Positions 2,006 through 62,700 of a DNA stretch of 64,000 nucleotides are shown here, one piece after another. The position numbers were made by a program, and so were the translations under genes. Below the pieces are notes generated by a model. It was not told where the DNA came from. It was given only the letters and a program-made list of their open reading frames with translations, and searched no databases. Source of the stretch: Nocardioidaceae bacterium (GTDB lineage: Bacteria > Actinomycetota > Actinomycetes > Propionibacteriales > Nocardioidaceae); contig DASTWW010000212.1 of NCBI GenBank assembly GCA_035765755.1, positions 4,929-68,928 of the forward strand, in the 5' to 3' direction. How positions within the stretch are numbered: the first letter of the stretch is position 1; each line of letters starts with the position of its first letter.

Positions 2006-2887
2006 CTACGGCAGCGACATCGAGAACGCGCCGGGCTCGAGGTGCCACCCGCGGTTGCGCTCCGGACCGAACAGCTCCCCGTCCGCGGAGCAGTAGAACC
2101 CCTGCCCGGACACGGTGACCTGGGTGCCTCGCACGTACGTGACGTCGGTGCGCTCGTGGTGCCGGCCCTGGCCGAGCCTTGCGGCGTACCCGATCCGGGC
2201 CGGCAGCCCGACCGCGTAGGAGACCAGCACGTCCATCTTCCCGTCGCGGGGCATCGCCTCCGGGGTCAGCGCGGTGCCGCCGCCGACCCGGGCGCCGTTG
2301 CCGATGGCCACCTGGAGCACCGGCTGGTCGATGTCGGTGACCACGTCACCATCCACCTCGACCCGTAGCCGCACGAACGGCGGGTTCACCGCGGCCACCG
2401 CCGCGCCGAGGAGGTAGCCGGCCCGGCCCAGCTTCTCCTTCCATCGGTGGGCGTTGCGGCTGGCCTCCGCGCCGACCCCGATGTGCACGTTGTTGACCAC
2501 GATCTCGCCGAGGCAGTCCACGATCAGGTCCACCTCGCGGACGTTGCCGTCCAGGACGATCCGCGCGGCCTCTTCGATGTCCAGGGGGATGCCCACGCCG
2601 CGGGCGAAGTCGTTGCCGGTGCCCAGCGGCAGCAGCGCGAGGGTCGTCTCGCCGAGCTCGTGGCGGCGGTGCAGCGCGGAGATCACGGCGTGCAGGCTGC
2701 CGTCTCCGCCGGCCACCACCACCCGGCGCCCCCCGCGGCGGTGCAGCACGCCGTCGAGCTCGCCCTGGTCTCCGGTGTGGCAGACCTCCACGTCACCGCG
2801 CTCGCGCAGTACCGCGAGCGCCCGTTCGAGCTCGCTGTCGTCATTGCCGCCGGCCCCGGCGTTGGTGATCAGCAGCAGTGGTTCCAC
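2006..2887 (-). CDS. diacylglycerol/lipid kinase family protein
   Basis: DAGK catalytic motifs are present: LLLITNAGAGG, VVVAGGDGSLHAVISAL, LPLGTGNDFARGVGIP. The start is set at GTG 2887 (VEPLLLITN...). The track ORF extends to a TTG at 2938. Confidence 0.8.
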   Translation of the reverse strand: MEPLLLITNAGAGGNDDSELERALAVLRERGDVEVCHTGDQGELDGVLHRRGGRRVVVAGGDGSLHAVISALHRRHELGETTLALLPLGTGNDFARGVGIPLDIEEAARIVLDGNVREVDLIVDCLGEIVVNNVHIGVGAEASRNAHRWKEKLGRAGYLLGAAVAAVNPPFVRLRVEVDGDVVTDIDQPVLQVAIGNGARVGGGTALTPEAMPRDGKMDVLVSYAVGLPARIGYAARLGQGRHHERTDVTYVRGTQVTVSGQGFYCSADGELFGPERNRGWHLEPGAFSMSLP

Positions 2888-2925
2888 GGGTCGGACCCTA
2901 CATCGGCCCCGGGACCCTCTGATAA

Positions 2926-5543
<2,618 letters not shown>

Positions 5544-37635: not shown

Positions 37636-39180
37636 GTGCCTCGGACCCGCGGAGACGGACGCCTCACCCACGCCCTCGACCCGCACGACCTCGGACCGCA
37701 GGACGCGTGCGGCGTGTTCGGGGTCTGGGCGCCCGGTGAGGACGTCGCGAAGCTGACCTACTACGGGCTGTACGCCCTGCAGCACCGCGGTCAGGAGTCC
37801 GCAGGGATCGCGGTGAGCAACGGCCGCCAGATCCTGGTCTTCAAGGACATGGGCCTGGTCTCCCAGGTCTTCGACGAGGCCACGCTCGAGTCCCTCAAGG
37901 GGCACGTCGCGATCGGCCACGCGCGCTACTCCACCACCGGCGCCAGCACCTGGCACAACGCGCAGCCGACGTTCCGGCCGACCGCGACCGGCTCCCTCGC
38001 CCTGGCCCACAACGGCAACCTGACCAACACCCACGAGCTGGCTGAGCGGGTGCAGGGACTGGCCCCGCTGAACGGCGAGCTGGACCTACCGATGCGCAAC
38101 CAGCACAACTCCACGAACGACACGAGCCTGGTGACCGCGCTGCTCGCCCACCACCCGGACACCAGCCTGGAGGAGAACGCCGCCGCAGTCCTGCCCACCA
38201 TCCGGGGCGCGTTCTCATTCGTCTGGATGGACGAGAACACCCTCTACGCCGCTCGCGACCCGCAGGGCATCCGCCCGCTGGTCCTCGGCCGGCTCGAGCG
38301 CGGCTGGGTGGTCGCCTCGGAGACCGCCGCCCTCGACATCGTCGGCGCCTCCTTCATCCGCGAGGTGGAGCCCGGCGAGCTGGTCGCCGTCGACGAGGAC
38401 GGGCTGCGCAGCCGCACCTTCGCCGACCCGGCGCCGAAGCACTGCCTGTTCGAGTTCGTCTACCTGGCCCGCCCCGACACGCTGATGAGCGACCAACGGG
38501 TGCACAGCGTGCGCGTCGAGATAGGCCGGCGGCTGGCCCGCGAGTTCCCCACCGAGGCGGACCTGGTCATTCCGGTCCCCGAGTCCGGAACGCCCGCCGC
38601 CATCGGGTACGCCGAGGAGTCCGGGATTCCCTACGGCTCCGGGCTGGTCAAGAACTCGTACGTCGGACGGACGTTCATCCAGCCTTCCCAGACGATCCGG
38701 CAGCTCGGCATCCGGCTGAAGCTCAACCCGCTGCGCGACGTCATCGAGGGCAAGCGGCTCGTCGTGGTCGACGACTCGATCGTGCGCGGCAACACCCAGC
38801 GCGCGCTGGTCCGGATGCTGCGCGAGGCGGGCGCCCGCGAGGTGCACGTGCGGATCTCCAGCCCGCCGGTGAAGTGGCCGTGCTTCTACGGCATCGACTT
38901 CGCCAGCCGCGCCGAGCTGATCGCCAACGGACTGTCCAGCGACGAGATCTGCCGCTCCATCGACGCCGACTCGCTGGGCTACATCTCCCTCGACGAGCTC
39001 GTCGAGGCCACCGGCGTGCCCAAGAACAACCTGTGCCGGGCCTGCTTCGACGGGGTGTACCCAGTGCCGCTGCCCGAGCCGGAGCACCTCGGCAAGCACC
39101 TGCTCGAACCGGCCGTCGTCGGCCCGAAGCTGCCTCTCACCCTGGGCGGCGGGGCCTCCGACGCCCTCGGACGTCCCTGA
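37636..39180 (+). CDS. purF: amidophosphoribosyltransferase
   Basis: ACGVFGVWAPGEDVAKLTYYGLYALQHRGQESAGI (Ntn Cys after a propeptide) and the PRTase motif VVVDDSIVRGNT. The start is set at GTG 37636, outside the repeat array. The track start at 37558 lies inside the repeats. Confidence 0.9.
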   Translation: MPRTRGDGRLTHALDPHDLGPQDACGVFGVWAPGEDVAKLTYYGLYALQHRGQESAGIAVSNGRQILVFKDMGLVSQVFDEATLESLKGHVAIGHARYSTTGASTWHNAQPTFRPTATGSLALAHNGNLTNTHELAERVQGLAPLNGELDLPMRNQHNSTNDTSLVTALLAHHPDTSLEENAAAVLPTIRGAFSFVWMDENTLYAARDPQGIRPLVLGRLERGWVVASETAALDIVGASFIREVEPGELVAVDEDGLRSRTFADPAPKHCLFEFVYLARPDTLMSDQRVHSVRVEIGRRLAREFPTEADLVIPVPESGTPAAIGYAEESGIPYGSGLVKNSYVGRTFIQPSQTIRQLGIRLKLNPLRDVIEGKRLVVVDDSIVRGNTQRALVRMLREAGAREVHVRISSPPVKWPCFYGIDFASRAELIANGLSSDEICRSIDADSLGYISLDELVEATGVPKNNLCRACFDGVYPVPLPEPEHLGKHLLEPAVVGPKLPLTLGGGASDALGRP

Positions 39181-45068: not shown

Positions 45069-48000
45069 CTACTGGCTCGGGGGCCGCTCAGCCGGCCGTG
45101 AGCACGCACCACACGGACTTGCCGTGCTCGGTGCCCCGGGTGCCCCATCGGAGGCGAGCGCGGCGACGATCTGCAGCCCCCGGCCGTGCTCGTCGTCGGG
45201 GGTGGGCCGCAGCCGGCGCGGCTGGTAGGTGGCCCGGTCCAGCACCTCGACCATCACCTCCGTGTCCCGGGTGCGCAGCCGCAGCTCCAGCGGGCCCGCG
45301 CCGTGCAGCACCGCGTTGGTGACCAGCTCGCTGGTGGCGAGCACGGTGTCCTCGGCGAGCCGCTCGGGAAGGTCGTGGTCGGCCAGGTGCCGGCCGACGA
45401 TGCTGCGGGCCTGGTGCGCGGCGGTCTCGGTGGCCTCGAGCCGTTGGATCAGGATCGGGTTCTCTTCGGTGGGGTCGACCCGGGCGATCAGGATCGCCAC
45501 GTCGTCATCCGGGCCTTCCGGCAGCAGCGCGTCCACCAGCCGTTCCGGCATCCCCGACGTCGCGCCCTCCAGCCCGCCGGCCAGCCGGGCCAGCGTGGTG
45601 ATGCCCCGGTCCAGGTCCTCGCCCCGTCGCTCCACCAGCCCGTCGGTGTAGAGCACCGCCATCCCGCCGGCCTCCAACCGGACGTCGCGCTGGGCCAGCG
45701 TGAACGGCCCGGTGCCCAGCGGCGGGTCGGCTGCTCCGGTGAGCACCCGGGACGCGCCGTCGGCACTGACCAGGATCGGGGGCAGGTGCCCGGCGTTGGC
45801 GATGCGCAGCACCCGGTCGGCCGGGTCGAAGACCGCGTACAGGCAGGTGACGATCTGGTTCTCGTCCAGGTCGCGGACGATCCCGTCGAGGTACTCCAGC
45901 ACGTCGGCCGGCGGCAGGCCGAGCCGCGCATAGGCCCGGGTCGCGGTGCGGAGCTGCCCCATCACCGCAGCCGCCTGCACGCCGCGGCCCATCACGTCGC
46001 CCACCACGAGGGCGGTCCTGCCCGCGCCGAGCTGGATCACGTCGTACCAGTCACCGCCGACCTGAGTGCCCTCGACCCCCGCCCGGTAGAAGGTGGCCAC
46101 CTCCAGGTGCTCGAGGTCGAAGGAGGTCTCGGGCAGCAGGCTGCGCTGCAGCTGGTCGGCGATGGCGTGCTCGCGGGCGGCCGCCTCCGCGTTCGCGGTC
46201 GCCAGGGCCAGCGCCTCCTCCGCGGCGCGGCGCTCGGTGATGTCCTGCACCGAGCCGCGGATCGCCTCGACCTCGCCGTCCTCGTCGCGCAGCACCTCGG
46301 CCCGCACGCTGACCAGCACCGCGCTGCCGTCGGGGTGGACCATGCGGGCCTCGTAGGTGATCGGCTCTCCGGCGACGCCGGCGTCGAAGGCGCGCTGCAC
46401 CATCGCCCGGTCGTCAGGGTGCACCAGCTCGTTGATCAGCTCCGGGTAGCGCAGCGCGGCCACCTCCTCGGCGGTGCGGCCGGCGATCCGCAGGTACTCC
46501 TCCGAGACGTGGACCGCACCGGTGCGCAGGTCGATCTCCCAGCTGCCCACCTGGGCAAGCCGCTGGGCCTGGTCCAGGAGGGTGCGTCCGCGCTCGAGCT
46601 GGCGCCGGATCCGGCGGGCCCGGTCGAGCTCCAGGTTGGCGCGCACCCGTGCCTTCAGCTCCCGGGCGGTGAACGGCTTGATCAGGTAGTCGTCCGCGCC
46701 CCGGTCCAGGCCCTCGAGCATCCCCTCCTCCCCGGCGCGTGCGGAGAGCATCACGACCGGCACGCCCACCGTGGCCGGATCCCCCTGCAGGGCGGCGAGC
46801 AGCTCGAAGCCGTCCATCCGCGGCATCATCACGTCGGTGAGCACGAGGTCGGGGTGCAGCACCCATGCCTTGGTCAGTGCGTCCGCCCCGTCCACGGCGG
46901 TGTCCACGTGGTACTCGTCGGCCAGCACCCCGGCGACGTACTCCCGGATGTCGGCGTTGTCGTCGACGACCAGGACCCGTGGCGCCGGTCCCTCGTGCTG
47001 CGCCGGCCAGGACGGCGCCCAGGTAGGGCCGGAGGACAGTTGGAGAGCCTCCTCCACGGAGCCCTCGGTGTCGCTCGGTGTGGCCGAGGAGGCGCCGCCG
47101 GTGGTCACTGCGTCGCACGGCAGGTGGTCGGGCCCGAAGGGGACGCGGACGCAGAAGGTGCTGCCCACCCCGAGCACGCTGGTCACCGTGGCGGTGCCGC
47201 CGTGCAGCTCGGCCAGCTCCCGGACCATCGCGAGCCCGATGCCGGAGCCCTCGTGGGTCCGGGACGCGGCTCCGTGCACCCGGCGGAACCGCTCGAACAG
47301 GTGCGGGATCTCCGGCTGAGGAATGCCGGTCCCGGTGTCGACGACGGCCAGCTCGACCTGCCCGTCGACCTGGCGCAGGTGCACCTCGATGCCGCCGGAA
47401 AAAGTGAACTTCAGCGCGTTCGACAGCAGGTTGAGCACCATCTTCGCCCACAGCTCGGCGTCGACGTACACCGGGTCGGGCAGCGGCGGACAGTCGACGG
47501 TCAGCGACAGTCCGAGCCGCTCGGTGGCCGCGTCGAACATGCTGGCCAGCTCGCGGGTGTACTGCGCCAGGTCGATGGGCGCGAACTGTGCCTCGGTGCG
47601 GCCGGACTCCAGCCGGGAGAAGTCCAGCAGGGTGTTGACCAGCTTGAGCAGCCGCTGACCGTTGCGCAAGATCACCTCGACCCGGCCGCGCTGCCGATCC
47701 GGCAGCGGCAGCTGGGGGTCGGCGAGCGCGTCCTCCGCCGGCCCGAGCAGCAGCGTCAACGGGGTGCGGAACTCGTGGCTGATGTTGGTGAAGAAGTCGG
47801 TCTTGGCGTGGTCGAGCTCGGCGAGGGTCTCTGCGCGAGCGCGCTCGAAGTCGAAGGCGCGGCCCTCGGTGATGACGGAGGTGAGCTGACCCGCGACCAG
47901 GTCCAGGAAGTCGCGGTAGCCGCGGTCGAGCGGTCGGTAGCGGTTCACCGCGGCGACCAGGAAGCCGTACGGGCTCGCCTGCCCGCTCTGGGCCAGCGGC

Positions 48001-48821
48001 AGCACCACCGCCGACACCGGAGGGTCCACCCACCGGCCGGTGGGCAGGTCGGCGAACCGGGGCGGCAGGTCGACCAGCACGCTTCGGCCGGCCAGCGCCT
48101 CACCGACCGGCCAGGGGTGCTGCGCGTCCAACGGCAGCTCGGCCGGGGCGGCCGGGTGGCCGCCCGTGAACCCCGCGCTGCCGGCGAGTCGGGCGACGCC
48201 GGCCGGCTCGTCGTACAGGTAGACCAGGCTGAACGGGAGCGCGTCCGTCGCCTCGTCCAGCTGCCGGCAGGACGCGGCGACCATCTCGGCCTCACCGAGG
48301 CTGACGCTGGACCGGGCGCCGAGGTCCCGCAGGATGCTCATCCGCCGCCGACCGATCACCTCCTGGGTGTCCTCGGTGACTACGCACAGCATCCCGGCGA
48401 TCTTGCCGCCGTCGTCGAACAGCGGGCTGTAGGAGAACGTGTGGTAGGTCTCCTCGACGTACTCGTTGCGCTCGAGGAACAGCAGCAGCGACTCGTCCCA
48501 GGTGGCGACCCCGGTGGTGAGCACCTTCTCGATGCGCGGGCCGATGTCGTGCCAGATCTCCGACCACACCTTCGAGGCCGGCTTGCCCAGGGCCCACGGA
48601 TACTTCTTGCCAAGCGTGTCGCGGCGGTAGGCGTCGTTGCAGAAGAAGGTCAGCTCCGGGCCCCACGCCATCCACATCGGGAACCGCGACGTGAGCACCA
48701 TGCGTACGACGCTCTGCAGGCTGCGCGGCCAGCTGTCCAGGGGACCGAGCGGTGTTGCGGACCAGTTGACGTCGAGCAGGTCACGACCCACCCCGCCGAT
48801 CCTCTCGAACATCTCCCGCAT
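45069..48821 (-). CDS. multidomain sensor: PAS-GAF-HisKA-HATPase_c-REC-PAS-PP2C(SpoIIE)-HATPase_c_2 (RsbW-like); apparent 1-nt frameshift near the 3' end
   Basis: H-box SHEFRTPL; N/G boxes LLSNALKFT, DTGTGI, GSGIGLAMV. Receiver VLVVDDN...LTDVMMP...GADDYLIKPF. PP2C GGDWYDV...GDVMGRGVQAA...LYTDGLVERRG. RsbW-like ELVTNAVLHG...EHGRGLQIVAALAS. Start ATG 48821 has an AGGAGA RBS. The canonical ending WGTRGTEHGKSVWCVLTAG* is readable only in another frame (45147-45088). Confidence 0.85.
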   Translation of the reverse strand: MREMFERIGGVGRDLLDVNWSATPLGPLDSWPRSLQSVVRMVLTSRFPMWMAWGPELTFFCNDAYRRDTLGKKYPWALGKPASKVWSEIWHDIGPRIEKVLTTGVATWDESLLLFLERNEYVEETYHTFSYSPLFDDGGKIAGMLCVVTEDTQEVIGRRRMSILRDLGARSSVSLGEAEMVAASCRQLDEATDALPFSLVYLYDEPAGVARLAGSAGFTGGHPAAPAELPLDAQHPWPVGEALAGRSVLVDLPPRFADLPTGRWVDPPVSAVVLPLAQSGQASPYGFLVAAVNRYRPLDRGYRDFLDLVAGQLTSVITEGRAFDFERARAETLAELDHAKTDFFTNISHEFRTPLTLLLGPAEDALADPQLPLPDRQRGRVEVILRNGQRLLKLVNTLLDFSRLESGRTEAQFAPIDLAQYTRELASMFDAATERLGLSLTVDCPPLPDPVYVDAELWAKMVLNLLSNALKFTFSGGIEVHLRQVDGQVELAVVDTGTGIPQPEIPHLFERFRRVHGAASRTHEGSGIGLAMVRELAELHGGTATVTSVLGVGSTFCVRVPFGPDHLPCDAVTTGGASSATPSDTEGSVEEALQLSSGPTWAPSWPAQHEGPAPRVLVVDDNADIREYVAGVLADEYHVDTAVDGADALTKAWVLHPDLVLTDVMMPRMDGFELLAALQGDPATVGVPVVMLSARAGEEGMLEGLDRGADDYLIKPFTARELKARVRANLELDRARRIRRQLERGRTLLDQAQRLAQVGSWEIDLRTGAVHVSEEYLRIAGRTAEEVAALRYPELINELVHPDDRAMVQRAFDAGVAGEPITYEARMVHPDGSAVLVSVRAEVLRDEDGEVEAIRGSVQDITERRAAEEALALATANAEAAAREHAIADQLQRSLLPETSFDLEHLEVATFYRAGVEGTQVGGDWYDVIQLGAGRTALVVGDVMGRGVQAAAVMGQLRTATRAYARLGLPPADVLEYLDGIVRDLDENQIVTCLYAVFDPADRVLRIANAGHLPPILVSADGASRVLTGAADPPLGTGPFTLAQRDVRLEAGGMAVLYTDGLVERRGEDLDRGITTLARLAGGLEGATSGMPERLVDALLPEGPDDDVAILIARVDPTEENPILIQRLEATETAAHQARSIVGRHLADHDLPERLAEDTVLATSELVTNAVLHGAGPLELRLRTRDTEVMVEVLDRATYQPRRLRPTPDDEHGRGLQIVAALASDGAPGAPSTASPCGACSRPAERPPSQ

Positions 48822-49087
48822 GTTCCGTCTCCTGGCGTCGCGGGTCGGTTCAGTGCAGTCAATCATGGGACTGACCTGTTCCGCAGTCCCCAAAACAGGC
48901 CGTGAACTGCGGCTTTGCCCACATTGGGCGGCTTCGTTCCCCACCGGGCTCGCCACGCCTGCTGGTGCTGGTCCTGACCAGCAGCACTACTTCGGGGAAA
49001 CGGGTTTCGGCCGGTCCGGTGAGGGCTACGTCCGAGCCTTCCGGGCGCTCGCGCCCCGGACGACAACCGCTCGAAGGGAGCAAGGAC

Positions 49088-59472: not shown

Positions 59473-61623
59473 TCAGGGGCTGGTCAGGATGACCAGTCGT
59501 TGGGTGGCTCTCGTCATCGCGACGTAGCGGTCGACCGCTGCCTCGATGCCCGTGCCGAACGCCTCGGGGTCGACGAGCACGACCAGGTCGAACTCGAGCC
59601 CCTTGCACAGCTCCGGGGTCAGCGATCGGACACGGTCCGTGGCCTGGAACGTGGGATCTCCGATGACACAGGCGACCCCCTCGGCGTGGGCGGCCCGCCA
59701 GGGGTCCAGGATCGTGTCCAACTGCGAGCGGGACTCGTGGGCGACCGGCACCCCGCTCTTCCGGATGGAGGTCGGCACGTTGGCGTCCGGGATGACAGCG
59801 CGGATGACCGGCTCGGCCTCGGTCATGACCTCCGCCGGGGTCCGGTAGTTGATGGTCAGCGACGACAGGCTGACCTGACCGAGCCCGACTCGCTCGAGCC
59901 GCTCCTGCCAAGGCTCGGTGAACCCGTGCCTGGCCTGGGCCCGGTCCCCGACGATGGTGAAGCTCCGGGACGGGCAGCGCTGCAGCAGCATCTGCCACTC
60001 CGCGTCGGTGAGCTCCTGGGCCTCGTCGACCACGATGTGCGCGAACGGACCGGCCAGCGGGTCGGGGTCGGCGGCCGGGAGCCCGGCGTCGTCGACCAGG
60101 GCGCCCCGCAGGTCCTCCCCGCGCAGCATTGACATCACCAGCATCTCGGAGTCGTCGGCGGCGACCAGGTGGTCCACGACCCTGGACATCTCCTCGCGCT
60201 CCGCAGCGACCGCCGTTTCGTGCCGGCGTCTGCGCCGTGAGGCCTCCGGGTCGCCGAGCCGCCGCCGTGCCGCGTCGAGCAGCGGGAGGTCGGCGATCGT
60301 CCAGGCCAGCGGGTCCTCGCGCTGCAGCGTCCGGACCTGGTCGCGGTCGAGCCAGGGAGCGCACAGCCGCAGGTACGCCGGCACCGACCACAGGTCTCCG
60401 ACCAGGTCGACCGCGTCGATCATCGGCCAGGCACGGTGTAGCGCCTCGATAAGGGCAGCGTTTTGCCGGAGGGAGGCGCGGACCATCTCGGCGGGCACGC
60501 CCTCGTCGTCGTGCTTGTCGACGAGGATGGCGAGCAGCTCCTCCCAGATGTCGTCGCGCGCCTCGTTGTGCGGGGTGCCGGGCTCGGCCGCTCGGAAGGC
60601 CTCGGCCCAGTCGTCGGCGCTGAGCCGGAGGTCGGACCAAGGGGTCTCGACGACCATTGTCTCGGTGGGCGGCTCCTCGTAGAAGCGGACGGCCGGCTCG
60701 ATCGCCCCGACCATGCCGGCGTCGGACTTCAGCCGGGCCACGTCCGGGTCCGGCTCAGGGGCCGCCGACGCACCTTCTGGGACCAGGTCCCGCAGCGTGC
60801 AGGTCTGCACGCCCTCCTCGCCCAGGCTGGGGAGGACGTCGCCGACGTACGCCAGGTAGGGCTGGTGCGGGCCGACGAACATCACGCCGCCACGTCGGTG
60901 GCCGAGGCGAGGGTCGGAGTAGAGCAGGTACGCCGCGCGGTGCAGGGCGACCACGGTCTTCCCGGTGCCCGGGCCGCCGTCCACGACGAGCGCTCCGCGG
61001 GAACCGGCGCGGATGATCGCGTCCTGGTCGGCCTGGATGGTGCCGAGCACGTCGCGCATGCGGCCCGACCGGTGGCCGCCGAGGCTGGCGATGAACGCGG
61101 ACTGGTCGTCGAGCGCGGCGTGCTGCGCCAGGCCGTCCTCGGTGAACACCTCGTCCCAGTAGTCGCTGATCCGCCCGCCGGTCCAGCGGTAGCGACGGCG
61201 GCTGGCCAGGCCCATGGGCGTTCCGTGGGTGGCGCCGAAGAACGGCTCGGCCGCCGGGGAGCGCCAGTCGACCAGCAGCGGGCGGCCCGCATCGTCCTTG
61301 AGGCCGAGCCGTCCGACGTACACCGGCTCGGCGCCGTCCGCGAACACCATGTGGCCCAGGCACAGGTCCAGCCCGAAGCGGCGCAGGGTGCGCAGCCGGG
61401 CAGTCAACCGGTGCACCTCCAGGTCCCGGTCCATGGCCTGCTGGCCCGCGCCGCCCGGTGCGCGGCGGGTCTCGTCCAGGCGCGCGGACAGCTCGGCGAC
61501 CGACCGTTCGAGGCTTTCCGCGATGGCCGCGAAGTGCCGCTCGTCGGCCTCGGTCAGCGCGGGGTCGGCCTTCGCGGCGAGGTGGTCGGGAAGGTCGAAC
61601 GCACTGGTGTGCGGGAGGTTCAC
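59473..61623 (-). CDS. helD: HelD-type (UvrD-like) RNA-polymerase-associated ATPase, candidate HelR
   Basis: Actinobacterial class-2 HelD-like N-terminus (YVGRLGL...LLVDWRSPAAEPFF), Walker A GGPGTGKT, and C-terminal CKGLEFDLVVLVD. GTG 61623 after GGAG. The track start 61728 lies inside the upstream palindrome. Confidence 0.85.
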   Translation of the reverse strand: MNLPHTSAFDLPDHLAAKADPALTEADERHFAAIAESLERSVAELSARLDETRRAPGGAGQQAMDRDLEVHRLTARLRTLRRFGLDLCLGHMVFADGAEPVYVGRLGLKDDAGRPLLVDWRSPAAEPFFGATHGTPMGLASRRRYRWTGGRISDYWDEVFTEDGLAQHAALDDQSAFIASLGGHRSGRMRDVLGTIQADQDAIIRAGSRGALVVDGGPGTGKTVVALHRAAYLLYSDPRLGHRRGGVMFVGPHQPYLAYVGDVLPSLGEEGVQTCTLRDLVPEGASAAPEPDPDVARLKSDAGMVGAIEPAVRFYEEPPTETMVVETPWSDLRLSADDWAEAFRAAEPGTPHNEARDDIWEELLAILVDKHDDEGVPAEMVRASLRQNAALIEALHRAWPMIDAVDLVGDLWSVPAYLRLCAPWLDRDQVRTLQREDPLAWTIADLPLLDAARRRLGDPEASRRRRRHETAVAAEREEMSRVVDHLVAADDSEMLVMSMLRGEDLRGALVDDAGLPAADPDPLAGPFAHIVVDEAQELTDAEWQMLLQRCPSRSFTIVGDRAQARHGFTEPWQERLERVGLGQVSLSSLTINYRTPAEVMTEAEPVIRAVIPDANVPTSIRKSGVPVAHESRSQLDTILDPWRAAHAEGVACVIGDPTFQATDRVRSLTPELCKGLEFDLVVLVDPEAFGTGIEAAVDRYVAMTRATQRLVILTSP

Positions 61624-61713
61624 GTGATCAGCTCCGATCGAGCAGCAGCGGCGCGGCCACCGTCGCCGCGGAAGGCACTGCTTGCCATCGGCGTGTGATT
61701 GTGAGGCACCACC

Positions 61714-61734
61714 GGGGTCTTGCCGCAAGACCCC
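61714..61734. promoter_or_regulatory. perfect 21-nt palindrome resembling the rifamycin-associated element (RAE)
   Basis: GGGGTCTTGC-C-GCAAGACCCC lies about 90 nt upstream of the HelD-type gene, in the divergent intergenic region. The match to the RAE consensus is from memory. Confidence 0.6.
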
Positions 61735-61794
61735 CTGTGCGCTATACGTTGAAAGTGGAGAGGGAGCACCTCTCCTCTTTCATGAGGGGGAGCA

Positions 61795-62700
61795 TTGGGA
61801 GCGGTCGCCGGCCGGCCGATGAGATGCTTCCTCGCCGGATTCACGCTGTTGCTGGTCGCCGGGTGCTCGGCGTCGAAGGCCAGCCAGGTGAACGGCGATC
61901 CTGTTCTGGGCTACGCCGACGCGCCCAGAGCCGTGCGGACCCTGCTGGACAAGAGCGGGATGGAGCCGGAGCTGAAGGCCGCCGGCGCCCGCCTGGCGGT
62001 GGGCCGGCACGTCGTCGTGGCCGGCGACGTCGGCGACACCGCCCTGTCCGAGATGGCGCACATCGGTGACGCCGCGGTGGCCGAGGTCGACGACCTGGCC
62101 GGACAGACCTCGCATGGTCGCGTGCTGATCCTGGCTCCGCAGACCCAGAGCGACTTCGCCTCCTGGGGCGGCGCCGGCTACGACGATGTCTACGGCCTGA
62201 CCCAGCCACCGTCCTGGAAGGACGCCCCCAGCGTCATCACGCTGGACCTCGCGAACGCCGGTCTGGGCGCCGTCACCTTGGAGGCGGACGGCAACCTGCT
62301 CCGCCACGTGATCGCTCACGAGATGTTCCACGCGCTCACCTTGCCGGTCGGCGGCTCGAAGGTGCCCCTGTGGCTCACGGAGGGGTTCGCCGAGGTGGCC
62401 GGGGAACGGATGCGGGACATCCCGCACCCGGAGGTCACCTGGCAGGCCGCGCTCCCCACGGACGCACAGTTCGACGCCGATCCCCAGAACGCGTACTTCC
62501 TGGCCTGGCAGCTCGCCGCCTACCTGCAGCGCCACGAAGGGCCCGCACGCGCCATGCGCTTCTACTTCGCTGCGCTGTCACCGTATCGCCACGCGTCGCT
62601 GAACGTGTTGAGCCGCCGCGACCTCGGCACGCCGCTGAAGGCACTGGTACGGCGCTGGAAGCACACCTACGACGCCAAGGGACCCATCGGCGTCTACTGA
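61795..62700 (+). CDS. lipoprotein with HExxH zinc-metallopeptidase motif
   Basis: Lipobox LLLVAGCSAS and VIAHEMFHAL...TEGFAE (HExxH plus a downstream E). TTG 61795 after GAGGGGGAG; the alternative start is ATG 61819. Confidence 0.6.
   Translation: MGAVAGRPMRCFLAGFTLLLVAGCSASKASQVNGDPVLGYADAPRAVRTLLDKSGMEPELKAAGARLAVGRHVVVAGDVGDTALSEMAHIGDAAVAEVDDLAGQTSHGRVLILAPQTQSDFASWGGAGYDDVYGLTQPPSWKDAPSVITLDLANAGLGAVTLEADGNLLRHVIAHEMFHALTLPVGGSKVPLWLTEGFAEVAGERMRDIPHPEVTWQAALPTDAQFDADPQNAYFLAWQLAAYLQRHEGPARAMRFYFAALSPYRHASLNVLSRRDLGTPLKALVRRWKHTYDAKGPIGVY

What the first reader, a model, noticed from the sequence alone, without database searches (positions are those of the whole stretch)
59473..61775. 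RAE-like perfect palindrome upstream of a HelD-type ATPase: candidate rifamycin-inducible HelR target-protection locus
A perfect 21-nt palindrome lies at 61714-61734. Read in the gene's orientation it is GGGGTCTTGCGGCAAGACCCC. It sits about 90 nt upstream of the GTG start (61623) of a 716-aa HelD-type protein with Walker A GGPGTGKT and C-terminal GLEFD.

From memory, this matches the rifamycin-associated element (RAE). The RAE is a ~19-bp inverted repeat found upstream of rifamycin resistance genes (arr, rph, rox, rgt, helR) in actinomycetes. HelR-type HelD proteins are reported to displace rifamycins from RNA polymerase.

The element lies in a divergent intergenic region shared with an HExxH lipoprotein gene (61795-62700). 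That gene could therefore be co-regulated. A second 7-bp-stem hairpin (GGAGAGG-gagca-CCTCTCC, 61757-61775) lies between the palindrome and that gene.
Basis: partly seen in the sequence, partly recalled or inferred. Interest (0 to 1): 0.7.

Follow-up and report, generated by a model that had tools for sequence, protein, structure and literature searches.

The report
Rifamycin-responsive element upstream of helR
This is an ordinary new example of a known actinobacterial rifamycin-resistance locus (the RAE DNA element in front of the RNA-polymerase-protecting ATPase HelR), but comparing it with about 120 other copies shows that the element sits at the centre of a larger conserved two-way promoter module, which may help explain how bacteria sense the drug.

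Summary
A perfect 21-nt palindrome lies at 61714-61734, unique in the window. It is 90 nt upstream of a 716-aa gene (59473-61623, minus strand).

The protein scores 1292.8 bits on NCBIfam motor_HelR (cutoff 750). NCBI already names this exact protein HelR, in a Nocardioidaceae MAG.

A scan of GTDB genomes with the same 19-mer returned almost only Actinomycetota. The genes downstream were HelR (42), rifampin monooxygenase (36), Rph (13) and Rgt-like glycosyltransferases (7). The locus is a new member of a known kind.

Across about 110 loci the RAE is flanked symmetrically by a sense -10-like hexamer (CANAAT) and an antisense TANNNT. The antisense hexamer is followed by a covarying hairpin that often carries a T-tail.

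In M. smegmatis arr, a published minus-strand TSS falls exactly 7 nt past that antisense hexamer.

The RAE mechanism was still described as unknown in January 2026. This back-to-back promoter architecture gives a testable hypothesis for it. Induction and resistance were not tested.

The parts
59473..61623 (-). helR: 716-aa class II HelD-type RNA polymerase-associated ATPase (GTG start, stop included)
   Evidence: NCBIfam NF041254 motor_HelR scores 1292.8 bits against a cutoff of 750, residues 9-714 on model positions 1-706. PDB best hit is 6yxu_H, M. smegmatis HelD, E = 2.6e-100. The exact sequence is NCBI HEU5045231.1, 'RNA polymerase recycling motor ATPase HelR [Nocardioidaceae bacterium]'. 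Motifs are listed. The PCh-loop equivalent is about residues 455-510, with an acidic tip at D490-D491 that aligns to M. smegmatis D482-D483 (PMC7749160).
61632..61635 (-). Shine-Dalgarno GGAG, 8 nt before the GTG
   Evidence: Read directly from the sequence. The block GATCGGAGCTGA-N3-4-GTG/ATG is conserved in front of helR in L001, L002, L003 and L005.
61634..61670 (-). Remnant of the 3' end of an rgt-like glycosyltransferase gene inside the helR leader
   Evidence: A local alignment places this stretch on L005 3733-3770, which lies inside the rgt-like gene 2561-3802 (…TDGATVAAKLLLDAV…). In Nonomuraea polychroma that gene sits between the RAE and helR.
61698..61703 (-). Sense -10-like hexamer CACAAT, 19 nt downstream of TTGCGG in the RAE; predicted helR TSS about 61689-61692
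   Evidence: NANNNT occupies this fixed position (+30..+35 from the RAE 19-mer) in 116 of 118 modules and almost nowhere at neighbouring offsets. This is consistent with the published M. smegmatis helD P2, whose -35 overlaps the RAE (PMC10719064). The TSS position is inferred.
61714..61734 (.). RAE: perfect 21-nt palindrome (19-mer core 61715-61733; GGGTCTTGCGGCAAGACCC in gene orientation)
   Evidence: It matches 18 of 19 positions of the consensus GGGgCTTGCgGCAAGaCCC re-derived from 109 loci, and 17 of 19 of the M. smegmatis arr RAE. Regulon test.
61739..61758 (+). Conserved box GCGCTATACGTTGAAAGTGG containing the antisense -10-like hexamer TACGTT (61745-61750); predicted antisense TSS about 61757
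   Evidence: TANNNT occupies this fixed position in 115 of 118 modules, with only positions 3-4 variable. In M. smegmatis the equivalent hexamer TATAGT lies at -12..-7 of the published minus-strand TSS 1290484.
61750..61785 (+). Hairpin (core GGAGAGG-gagca-CCTCTCC, extendable to 13-14 bp) plus T-rich tail TCTTTCATGA: terminator-like on the + strand, antisense to helR
   Evidence: Covariance model R1 (box plus hairpin) hits the window only here: 61739-61784, 38.6 bits, E = 1.9e-7 with filters off. Covariation across 72 loci is.
61819..62700 (+). Divergent neighbour: HExxH lipoprotein of unknown function. It is not a conserved partner of the module.
   Evidence: No Pfam hit. PGAP calls it 'hypothetical protein', HEU5045232.1, 293 aa. 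No informative PDB hit. L001 keeps only its first 6 codons. Upstream neighbours of RAE modules are co-directional in 42 loci and divergent in 40.

Best explanation
**What it is.** The locus is an RAE-controlled helR gene in a Nocardioidaceae genome.

**What HelR does (from published work on close homologues, not shown here).** HelR is a class II HelD-type SF1 ATPase. It binds RNA polymerase through the secondary and primary channels. Using ATP, it displaces bound rifamycin and frees stalled polymerase.

**How it is expressed.**
- Transcription starts from a weak promoter. Its -10-like hexamer is CACAAT (61698-61703, minus strand). Its -35 (TTGCGG) lies inside the RAE palindrome.
- Transcription is expected to rise on rifamycin exposure, as shown for RAE-linked helR, arr, rox and rph in Streptomyces and mycobacteria.

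**Architecture of the module.**
- The RAE is the centre of a roughly 100-bp conserved module.
- A second, better -10 (TACGTT, 61745-61750) lies on the opposite strand, placed symmetrically about the palindrome.
- That second hexamer fires away from helR, straight into a hairpin with a T-rich tail.

**Shown here.**
- Family membership of the protein.
- Identity of the palindrome with the RAE, by regulon.
- Conservation and covariation of the module.
- Coincidence of the antisense hexamer with a published TSS in M. smegmatis.

**Inferred.**
- Both promoters in this organism.
- Inducibility.
- The resistance phenotype.
- Any role of the antisense promoter in sensing.

**Origin.** The arrangement probably arose from an RAE-rgt-helR operon by deletion of rgt.
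For: **Protein.**
- NF041254 scores 1292.8 bits against a cutoff of 750.
- 6yxu aligns full length at E = 2.6e-100, with the PCh-loop region present and DD aligned to the Mg-contacting D482/D483 (PMC7749160).
- DWR, Walker A and DEAQ motifs are present.
- It is 74.6% identical to an RAE-linked Streptomyces HelR.
- NCBI's annotation already names it HelR.

**RAE.**
- The palindrome is unique in the window.
- Downstream genes were HelR 42, Rox 36 (NF033145 825.5 vs cutoff 800), Rph 13 (NF041857 1610.7 vs cutoff 999) and Rgt-like 7.
- Homologous helR loci L001, L002, L003 and L005 all carry it.

**Module.**
- Consensus from 109 loci.
- Hexamers at fixed symmetric positions in 115 and 116 of 118 modules, and in all 98 modules linked to resistance genes.
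- The hairpin model hits only next to RAEs in 840 kb.
- 96.6% of cells are paired vs 86.9% in shuffles; 56 vs 16.1 cells have changes on both sides; 0 of 500 shuffles reach the observed values.
- The T-tail has at least 5 T in 10 nt in 47 of 105 modules in antisense orientation, against 6 of 105 in sense orientation.
- M. smegmatis TSS 1290484 (-) maps to module position -24, 7 nt past TATAGT. No + strand TSS for arr is listed in log phase.

**Literature.**
- 10.1101/2021.05.10.443488
- 10.1101/2021.05.10.443476
- PMC10719064

**Deletion origin.**
Against: - There are no expression or MIC data for this organism, which is an uncultured MAG.
- The typical conserved leader (CGGCCGAGGCCAGAACCTGCGGAAAT…) found after the sense -10 in most modules is missing or remodelled here, because of the rgt deletion. 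Regulation could therefore be altered.
- The hairpin's T-tail in the window is weak (TCTTTCATGA).
- No arr, rox, rph or rgt homologue and no second RAE lie in these 64 kb. The usual pairing with an inactivating enzyme is not seen locally.
- The published RAE logo (Spanogiannopoulos 2014) could not be read. The comparison is with a consensus re-derived here.
- Module orientation was first assigned from flank motifs, which partly pre-selects those motifs. The gene-direction check mitigates this.
Confidence: 0.85

Rival explanations
1. **Mechanism rival A, the standard view.** The RAE is the operator of an unidentified dimeric transcription factor that binds rifamycins. The flanking hexamers are simply the promoters it controls. 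The antisense promoter and hairpin are a by-product that is insulated by a terminator.
For: - The palindrome is highly conserved in sequence, including the outer GGGG/CCCC. These bases lie in the promoter spacers and are not explained by -35 function alone.
- Reviews favour a transcription factor (PMC10719064; PMC12802891).
- Deleting half of the RAE abolishes induction (10.1101/2021.05.10.443476).
Against: - No factor had been found more than ten years after the RAE was described; the mechanism is stated as unknown in January 2026 (PMC12802891).
- Positions 4 and 16 of the 19-mer do not covary. They carry an orientation-specific asymmetry (G..A in 43 loci, G..G in 24).
- The antisense promoter, whose -35 lies inside the RAE, is active in uninduced M. 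smegmatis. A repressor sitting on the RAE in uninduced cells is therefore unlikely.
- The antisense -10 and its flanks are more conserved than the sense -10. That is odd for a by-product.
Confidence: 0.45
2. **Mechanism rival B.** There is no dedicated factor, and RNA polymerase itself is the sensor. The stronger antisense promoter and the weaker sense promoter share overlapping -35 boxes in the palindrome (TTGCSGCAA). Rifamycin-bound polymerase changes the balance between them. This would be analogous in logic to the B. subtilis helD/pps dual-promoter alarm and to the M. smegmatis rpoB tandem promoters.
For: - The geometry is symmetric: both hexamers lie 21-26 bp from the palindrome centre, each with a 19-nt spacer.
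- The antisense TSS has been mapped experimentally in M. smegmatis arr, while no arr TSS is listed in uninduced cells.
- In half of the modules the antisense transcript would end at once in a terminator. It would be a promoter with no cargo.
- Precedents exist: PMC12802891, and Zhu 2018 as cited in PMC10719064.
Against: - With predicted TSSs only about 66 bp apart and pointing away from each other, the two polymerases should exclude one another. A rifamycin-arrested polymerase on the antisense promoter would then block the sense promoter rather than free it. No worked-out kinetic scheme gives induction.
- The geometry differs from the convergent B. subtilis system, whose TSSs are 39 bp apart.
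- The published M. smegmatis helD map reports two sense promoters (PMC10719064).
- GGGG/CCCC conservation is unexplained.
Confidence: 0.3
3. The gene is a housekeeping HelD (general RNAP recycling), and the palindrome is a chance or unrelated element such as a terminator or REP-like repeat.
For: Actinobacteria carry up to five helD paralogues, most of them not linked to resistance (PMC8655204). Perfect palindromes of about 20 nt occur elsewhere in the window.
Against: - The protein scores above the HelR-specific cutoff and below the HelD_MYCSM cutoff.
- The exact 19-mer, with its flanks, recurs in front of four rifamycin-resistance gene families.
- No T-run follows the palindrome, and it is not repeated in the window.
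Confidence: 0.04
4. The divergent HExxH lipoprotein gene is co-regulated with helR through the shared intergenic region.
For: The module's antisense promoter-like element (TACGTT 61745-61750) points at this gene. Its ATG (61819) lies only 37 nt beyond a hairpin with a weak T-tail, so read-through is conceivable. In M. smegmatis the homologous antisense TSS is annotated as a start for the divergent gene MSMEG_1220.
Against: - Upstream neighbours of RAE modules are unrelated and randomly oriented.
- The nearest relative with a different context keeps only six codons of this gene.
- The hairpin is terminator-like in exactly this direction.
- If the antisense promoter is the uninduced-state promoter, expression would not parallel helR.
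Confidence: 0.15

Closest known systems
HelR of Streptomyces venezuelae (SVEN_6029) and its RAE (Surette et al., 10.1101/2021.05.10.443488; NCBIfam NF041254)
   Same: Same protein family above the curated cutoff. Same motifs (DWR, Walker A, DEAQ) and a PCh-loop region. An RAE lies upstream in the same orientation. The host is an actinobacterium.
   Different: The host family is Nocardioidaceae and the genome is an uncultured MAG. The RAE is a perfect palindrome (T..A at the variable positions), where most RAEs are imperfect. The leader is a deletion remnant of an rgt gene. Nothing has been tested experimentally.
Mycobacterial HelR/HelD (M. abscessus MAB_3189c, M. smegmatis MSMEG_2174; PDB 6yxu) and the arr RAE
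   Same: Class II HelD fold at sequence level (E = 2.6e-100). The RAE core is nearly identical (17 of 19 positions vs M. smegmatis arr). The sense CACAAT and the antisense TANNNT sit at the same distances from the RAE.
   Different: The window protein is below the cutoffs of the mycobacterial models (417 vs 1100; 388 vs 1051). The mycobacterial modules lack the canonical TATAGCGCA box and the GGCAAGGAG-type hairpin. In M. smegmatis the antisense TSS is annotated as serving a real divergent gene.
Bacillus subtilis helD/pps dual-promoter rifampicin alarm (PMC12802891)
   Same: A rifampicin-resistance gene is preceded by a weak sense promoter and a stronger opposite-strand promoter. No dedicated regulator is known.
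   Different: The B. subtilis promoters are convergent, with TSSs 39 bp apart. Here the hexamers are back to back (divergent) and share overlapping -35 boxes in a palindrome. The antisense transcript runs away from the gene into a terminator. The authors explicitly set the actinobacterial RAE apart as unresolved.
RAE-rgt-helR operons (e.g. Nonomuraea polychroma, locus L005)
   Same: Orthologous helR (78% identity), the same RAE module, and the same helR ribosome-binding block.
   Different: The window has lost the glycosyltransferase gene and keeps only about 37 nt of its 3' end. This brings the RAE to 90 nt from helR.

Membership tests
HelR (RAE-associated class II HelD) | Score above the curated cutoff of the HelR-specific profile | tested here: met
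   NF041254 scores 1292.8 bits against a cutoff of 750, over the full-length model. NF041258 scores 417 (<1100) and HelD_MYCSM 388 (<1051).
HelR (RAE-associated class II HelD) | SF1 ATPase motifs needed for function (Walker A; Walker B DEAQ, whose Asp is essential in HelR-Sv) | tested here: met
   GGPGTGKT at 216-223 and DEAQ at 533-536. The D533A loss of function is reported in 10.1101/2021.05.10.443488. Residue equivalence rests on the motif, not on an alignment to the S. venezuelae protein.
HelR (RAE-associated class II HelD) | N-terminal DWR (Trp-cage) motif common to all HelD | tested here: met
   DWRSP at 119-123. The motif is described in PMC8655204.
HelR (RAE-associated class II HelD) | Class II-specific primary-channel (PCh) loop with an acidic tip | tested here: met
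   The alignment to 6yxu runs without interruption through M. smegmatis residues 448-503. Window D490-D491 align with D482-D483 (PMC7749160). This is sequence-level evidence only; no structure was predicted.
HelR (RAE-associated class II HelD) | Rifamycin-inducible, confers resistance/tolerance, displaces rifamycin from RNAP | not testable with these tools
   Needs RT-qPCR, MIC or time-kill assays, and biochemistry.
Rifamycin-associated element (RAE) | 19-bp inverted repeat matching the RAE consensus | tested here: met
   18 of 19 positions match the consensus re-derived from 109 loci. 17 of 19 match the RAE upstream of M. smegmatis arr. Both differences fall at the two variable positions. The published logo itself could not be read.
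Rifamycin-associated element (RAE) | Lies within a few hundred bp upstream of a rifamycin-resistance gene, in an actinobacterium | tested here: met
   It is 90 nt upstream of helR. The host is a Nocardioidaceae MAG.
Rifamycin-associated element (RAE) | The same motif recurs upstream of arr, rox, rph, rgt or helR in other genomes | tested here: met
   Downstream genes were HelR 42, Rox 36, Rph 13 and Rgt-like 7 among 114 ORFs. arr was seen in M. smegmatis and relatives.
Rifamycin-associated element (RAE) | Required for rifamycin induction of the downstream gene | not testable with these tools
   Needs reporter or deletion experiments.
Extended RAE module (defined here) | Antisense TANNNT at -12..-17, sense NANNNT at +30..+35, and a box plus hairpin upstream | tested here: met
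   The window has TACGTT, CACAAT and a hit of model R1 at 38.6 bits, E = 1.9e-7.
B. subtilis-type dual-promoter rifampicin alarm | Two convergent promoters with TSSs about 39 bp apart upstream of the gene | tested here: not met
   The hexamers point away from each other. Predicted TSSs are about 66 bp apart and divergent (geometry of the known system).
MerR-type activated promoter | Operator dyad centred in a 19-20-bp spacer between -35 and -10 | tested here: not met
   The spacers are 19 nt, but the palindrome centre lies about 33 bp upstream of either predicted TSS, on the -35 boxes and not in the spacer.
Intrinsic terminator (for the second hairpin) | G+C-rich stem followed by a T-run on the transcribed strand | tested here: inconclusive
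   The window is flagged on the + strand (stem of 7 pairs, tail TCTTTCATGA). Across loci the tail has at least 5 T in 10 nt in 47 of 105 modules in antisense orientation, against 6 of 105 in sense orientation. The window's tail is weak.

The most novel reading that the evidence does not exclude
The RAE may not be merely the operator of a still-unknown rifamycin-binding regulator. It may be the shared -35 core (TTGCSGCAA) of two back-to-back promoters.

- One is a strong antisense promoter that is active without drug and, in most lineages, transcribes only a terminator hairpin.
- The other is the weak sense promoter of the resistance gene.

Rifamycin-loaded RNA polymerase at this pair would be the signal. 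On this reading, actinobacteria and Bacillus sense rifamycins by the same principle (promoter interplay read out by polymerase itself) with different geometry.

The first half, that the antisense promoter exists and is conserved, is well supported here. The second half, that it is the sensor, is conjecture.
Probability: 0.3. Interest if true: 0.75.

Novelty: new member of a known kind. Interest (0 to 1): 0.42.

Why it matters
- **The locus itself.** It adds one more RAE-helR pair, in an uncultured Nocardioidaceae bacterium. It shows that NCBI's HelR call is backed by the cis element, and it documents how an rgt-helR operon can collapse to RAE-helR.
- **The comparative by-product.** Rifamycin-induced arr and helR are what make rifampicin useless against Mycobacterium abscessus. 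Blocking their common induction has been proposed as a therapeutic route, yet the RAE mechanism was still called unknown in 2026.
- **Concrete targets.** The conserved architecture is a symmetric promoter pair plus an antisense terminator, with one experimentally mapped antisense TSS. It gives point mutations and in vitro transcription experiments that could decide between a hidden regulator and polymerase-intrinsic sensing.

Tried and rejected
- **Rfam.** A scan of 61500-61900 at E <= 1 found no family.
- **Sigma-70 scan.** The consensus scan found no promoter. It requires near-E. coli hexamers, so comparative positions were used instead.
- **RNAalifold on a plain MAFFT alignment** of 102 hairpin regions gave no structure, because variable loops misaligned the 3' arms. 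It was replaced by a covariance-model alignment.
- **Leader peptide.** ATG…TAG spans the hairpin and box in the window, and a TTG ORF spans the RAE. This was rejected: the frame is broken by 1-nt indels in L001 and L002, and conservation shows no 3-nt periodicity.
- **MerR-like spacer operator.** Rejected on geometry.
- **Convergent geometry as in B. subtilis.** Not met.
- **Other resistance genes.** tblastn found no arr, rox, rph or rgt in the window.
- **arr in L002.** It has no RAE within 3 mismatches.
- **Published RAE paper.** The 2014 PNAS paper is not held.
- **M. smegmatis helD TSS rows.** They are cut from the stored supplement. The reported 'P1' about 20 bp upstream of the helD RAE could therefore not be compared with the antisense TSS position.
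- **Exact Arr-ms look-up.** The PDB-derived sequence failed. The problem was solved through cluster members.
- **Lipoprotein.** No Pfam family, and no PDB hit that says anything about function.
- **Structure prediction of HelR.** Judged unnecessary and not run.


Full report
**Observation.**
- The + strand at 61714-61734 reads GGGGTCTTGCCGCAAGACCCC, a perfect 10+1+10 palindrome.
- It is the only match in the 64-kb window even with three mismatches, against 0.01 expected from shuffles. A looser core pattern also hits only here.
- Palindromes of this length are not unique in the window: a 20-nt one lies in a CDS at 38988-39007. The case therefore rests on the sequence, not on the symmetry.
- Ninety nucleotides away, on the minus strand, a GTG at 61623 opens a 716-aa ORF ending at 59473. 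GGAG lies 8 nt upstream of the GTG.

**The protein.**
- NCBIfam's HelR-specific profile NF041254 matches residues 9-714 over its whole length with 1292.8 bits (cutoff 750).
- The mycobacterial HelR_2 and HelD profiles stay far below their cutoffs.
- The best solved relative is M. smegmatis HelD (6yxu), aligned from residue 36 to 713 at E = 2.6e-100.
- That alignment runs through the class II-specific primary-channel loop (M. smegmatis 448-503; PMC7749160). It puts window D490-D491 opposite the Mg-contacting D482-D483.
- DWR (119), Walker A (216-223) and DEAQ (533-536) are present.
- The identical sequence is already in NCBI as 'RNA polymerase recycling motor ATPase HelR' from a Nocardioidaceae MAG. 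The protein annotation is therefore not new.

**Is the palindrome an RAE?**
- The original paper could not be read, so I tested the definition empirically.
- Four helR homologue loci at 78-90% protein identity all carry GGGGNCTTGC(G/C)(G/A)CAAGNCCC upstream.
Nearly all were Streptomyces, Nocardia, Nonomuraea, Micromonospora, Rhodococcus and other Actinomycetota.
- After orienting each site, the first long ORF downstream fell into four large clusters. NCBIfam identified them as follows:

| Family | Loci | NCBIfam model | Bits | Cutoff |
|---|---|---|---|---|
| HelR | 42 | NF041254 | 1283 | 750 |
| Rifampin monooxygenase (Rox) | 36 | NF033145 | 825.5 | 800 |
| Rifamycin phosphotransferase (Rph) | 13 | NF041857 | 1610.7 | 999 |
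| Rgt-like glycosyltransferase | 7 | NF000354 | 507.6 (best hit) | 800 (not reached) |

- This is the published RAE regulon (10.1101/2021.05.10.443488).
- The RAE upstream of M. smegmatis arr, a characterised case (10.1101/2021.05.10.443476), reads GGGGCTTGCGGCAAGGCCC. The window's core differs at two positions, both the variable ones.

**The module around the RAE.** Aligning 109 oriented loci on the RAE gives this consensus:

cCttgCCacTcTCAAc.TATAGCGCAccg-GGGgCTTGCgGCAAGaCCC-cgGtcgTGcCGCAgAATC

Three points follow.

*First, the two variable RAE positions do not covary.* G..A occurs in 43 loci and G..G in 24. Most RAEs are imperfect and asymmetric relative to the gene. The window's T..A version is one of the few perfect ones.

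*Second, two -10-like hexamers sit symmetrically, 21-26 bp either side of the palindrome centre.*
- On the gene side the hexamer is CAGAAT or CACAAT, present in 116 of 118 modules.
- On the opposite strand it is TANNNT (TACGTT, TAAGTT, TATGTT and others), present in 115 of 118 modules. Only its third and fourth positions are free.
- Almost no such matches occur at neighbouring offsets.
- Each hexamer is 19 nt from a TTGC(G/C)G inside the palindrome.
- All 98 modules linked to HelR, Rox, Rph or Rgt-like genes have both hexamers.
- Divergent mycobacterial, Rhodococcus and Williamsia modules were not selected by my flank score, yet they keep them.

*Third, a hairpin follows the antisense hexamer at fixed distance, and its sequence varies.*
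- There are 95 distinct arms among 109 loci, and 103 loci have at least 7 pairs.
- A covariance model of box plus hairpin, built from 13 loci, found 64 full-length matches in 840 kb. Every one lies next to an RAE. The window matches uniquely at 61739-61784 (38.6 bits, E = 1.9e-7).
- On that alignment 96.6% of cells pair, against 86.9% in shuffles. Cells with changes on both sides number 56 against 16.1, and 0 of 500 shuffles reach the observed values. Sliding the partners destroys pairing. Caveat: the alignment is fitted to the structure.
- The hairpin has at least 5 T in the next 10 nt in 47 of 105 loci when read antisense to the gene, but in only 6 of 105 when read in the gene's direction.
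- The antisense RNA folds better in 72 loci against 36.
- Upstream neighbours are co-directional in 42 loci and divergent in 40. The hairpin therefore cannot be a neighbour's terminator; it belongs to the module.

**An experimental anchor.**
- Martini et al. (PMC6448022, Table S2) list a minus-strand primary TSS at 1290484 in M. smegmatis, seen in both data sets. They list no plus-strand TSS for arr (MSMEG_1221, 1290581-1291009) in log phase.
- Locus L129 comes from an M. smegmatis assembly and encodes the identical Arr. Its three genes match MSMEG_1220, 1221 and 1222 with one constant offset.
- In L129 the RAE is at 1428-1446. The antisense hexamer TATAGT is the reverse complement of 1411-1416. 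The published TSS maps to 1404.
- The TSS is exactly 7 nt past the hexamer, which therefore occupies -12 to -7. This is module position -24, as predicted from the other genomes.
- The antisense promoter of the RAE module is thus real in at least one characterised RAE locus, and it is active without drug.

**How the window's locus is built.**
- In gene orientation the order is: hairpin, TCAACGTATAGCGCA box, RAE, GGTGGTGCCT, CACAAT. A 66-69-nt leader then runs to the GTG.
- The usual conserved leader (CGGCCGAGGCCAGAACCTGCGGAAAT…) is absent.
- Instead, 61634-61670 aligns to the 3' end of the rgt-like gene that lies between the RAE and helR in Nonomuraea polychroma.
- Streptosporangium (L003) and an ENA contig (L002) keep a truncated 5' piece of rgt (MRVLLSTYGSRGDVEP…).
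- The simplest history is an RAE-rgt-helR operon from which rgt was deleted.
- No arr, rox, rph or rgt and no second RAE occur in the window. The neighbourhood is ordinary chromosome: alpha/beta hydrolase, LssY_C, glycine transporter, MFS, NYN and a GntR/FCD regulator. It is partly syntenic with the 90% relative L001.

**The lipoprotein gene.**
- PGAP starts it at ATG 61819 and calls it hypothetical. It has no Pfam family and no PDB hit that says anything about function.
- L001 keeps only its first six codons before a different gene, so it is not a conserved partner.
- Even so, the module's antisense promoter points at it, and the hairpin's tail is weak here. Some read-through is possible but unproven.

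**Mechanism.**
- What HelR does is taken from the literature on homologues. It binds RNAP, depends on ATP hydrolysis, and displaces rifamycin with the involvement of the PCh loop (10.1101/2021.05.10.443488; 10.1101/2021.05.10.443476; PMC7749160).
- How the RAE senses the drug is stated to be unknown as late as January 2026 (PMC12802891).
- My data fit the reported M. smegmatis helD P2, whose -35 overlaps the RAE (PMC10719064). They add a conserved antisense promoter and terminator.
- A repressor that occupies the RAE in uninduced cells is hard to reconcile with an antisense promoter that uses the RAE as its -35 and is active uninduced.
- A polymerase-intrinsic switch is attractive by analogy with B. 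subtilis and with M. smegmatis rpoB. But the geometry is divergent, not convergent, and I have no kinetic scheme that yields induction. Conservation of the outer GGGG/CCCC still suggests that something recognises the DNA.
- I therefore rank 'unknown factor at the RAE' slightly above 'polymerase itself is the sensor', and mark both as inference.

**Verdict.**
- The finding is correct and is a new member of a known kind. The protein is already annotated.
- Its intrinsic interest is modest.
- The extended, symmetric promoter-terminator architecture of the RAE was not found described in the literature I could search. I could not check the original 2014 paper.
- This architecture raises the value of the finding, because it turns an open mechanistic question into specific experiments.

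Noticed in passing
window 61634-61670 (-); L005 3733-3770; L002 and L003 about 3850-4000: The helR leader contains a roughly 37-nt remnant of the 3' end of an rgt-like glycosyltransferase gene. Relatives show the full gene (L005) or a truncated 5' piece encoding MRVLLSTYGSRGDVEP… (L002, L003) between the RAE and helR. This implies stepwise decay of an RAE-rgt-helR operon.
   Followed up: yes
L001 about 3790-3830 vs window 61819-61840: A relative whose HelR is 90% identical keeps only the first six codons (MRCFLA) of the lipoprotein gene. A different, oppositely oriented SBP gene follows. This marks a rearrangement breakpoint right beside the RAE module.
   Followed up: partly
L029, L034, L110, L020 (RAE positions): RAE 19-mers occur in assemblies labelled Candidatus Dormiibacterota, Acidobacteriaceae, Chloroflexia and the gammaproteobacterium Marilutibacter maris. 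L029, L034 and L020 also have recognisable flanking module sequence. This could reflect horizontal transfer or mis-binning. The gene downstream in L034 was not identified.
   Followed up: no
Modules in most rox/rph/rgt loci, positions +36..+80 from the RAE (consensus): A further conserved leader block, CGGCCGAGGCCAGAACCTGCGGAAATGGGGG, follows the sense -10. Its CTGCGG is complementary to the CCGCAG that overlaps the -10. The block is absent from the window. Its function is unknown.
   Followed up: no
L002, L003, L005, L010, L017, L078, L103, L112, L122; about -75..-95 from the RAE: Many modules have a second small inverted repeat, GTCCG-N5-7-CGGAC (…CAGCGGACGA…), beyond the hairpin's T/A tract. 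It is not present in the window.
   Followed up: no
L055 (Actinoplanes aureus), L121 (Nocardia sp.): Well-formed RAE modules lie in front of a DHA2-family MFS efflux pump (TIGR00711 212 bits, below its cutoff of 230.2) and of a large ORF that was not searched against any family library. These are possible additional members of the RAE regulon.
   Followed up: partly
L002 1467-1895: An Arr-ms (rifampin ADP-ribosyltransferase) gene lies 2 kb upstream of an RAE-helR locus. It has no RAE within 3 mismatches of its own.
   Followed up: partly
L129 1404 (= NC_008596 1290484, minus strand): The published TSS assigned to the ABC-permease gene MSMEG_1220 (151-nt leader) is the antisense promoter of the arr RAE module. 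Expression of that transporter gene may therefore be coupled to the RAE.
   Followed up: partly
window 38988-39007: A 20-nt perfect palindrome, CCTCGACGAGCTCGTCGAGG, lies inside a coding region.
   Followed up: no
window 45069-48956 (-): A 1295-aa multidomain signalling protein: GAF, HisKA, HATPase_c, receiver, PAS, SpoIIE phosphatase and an anti-sigma-like HATPase_c_2 in one chain.
   Followed up: no
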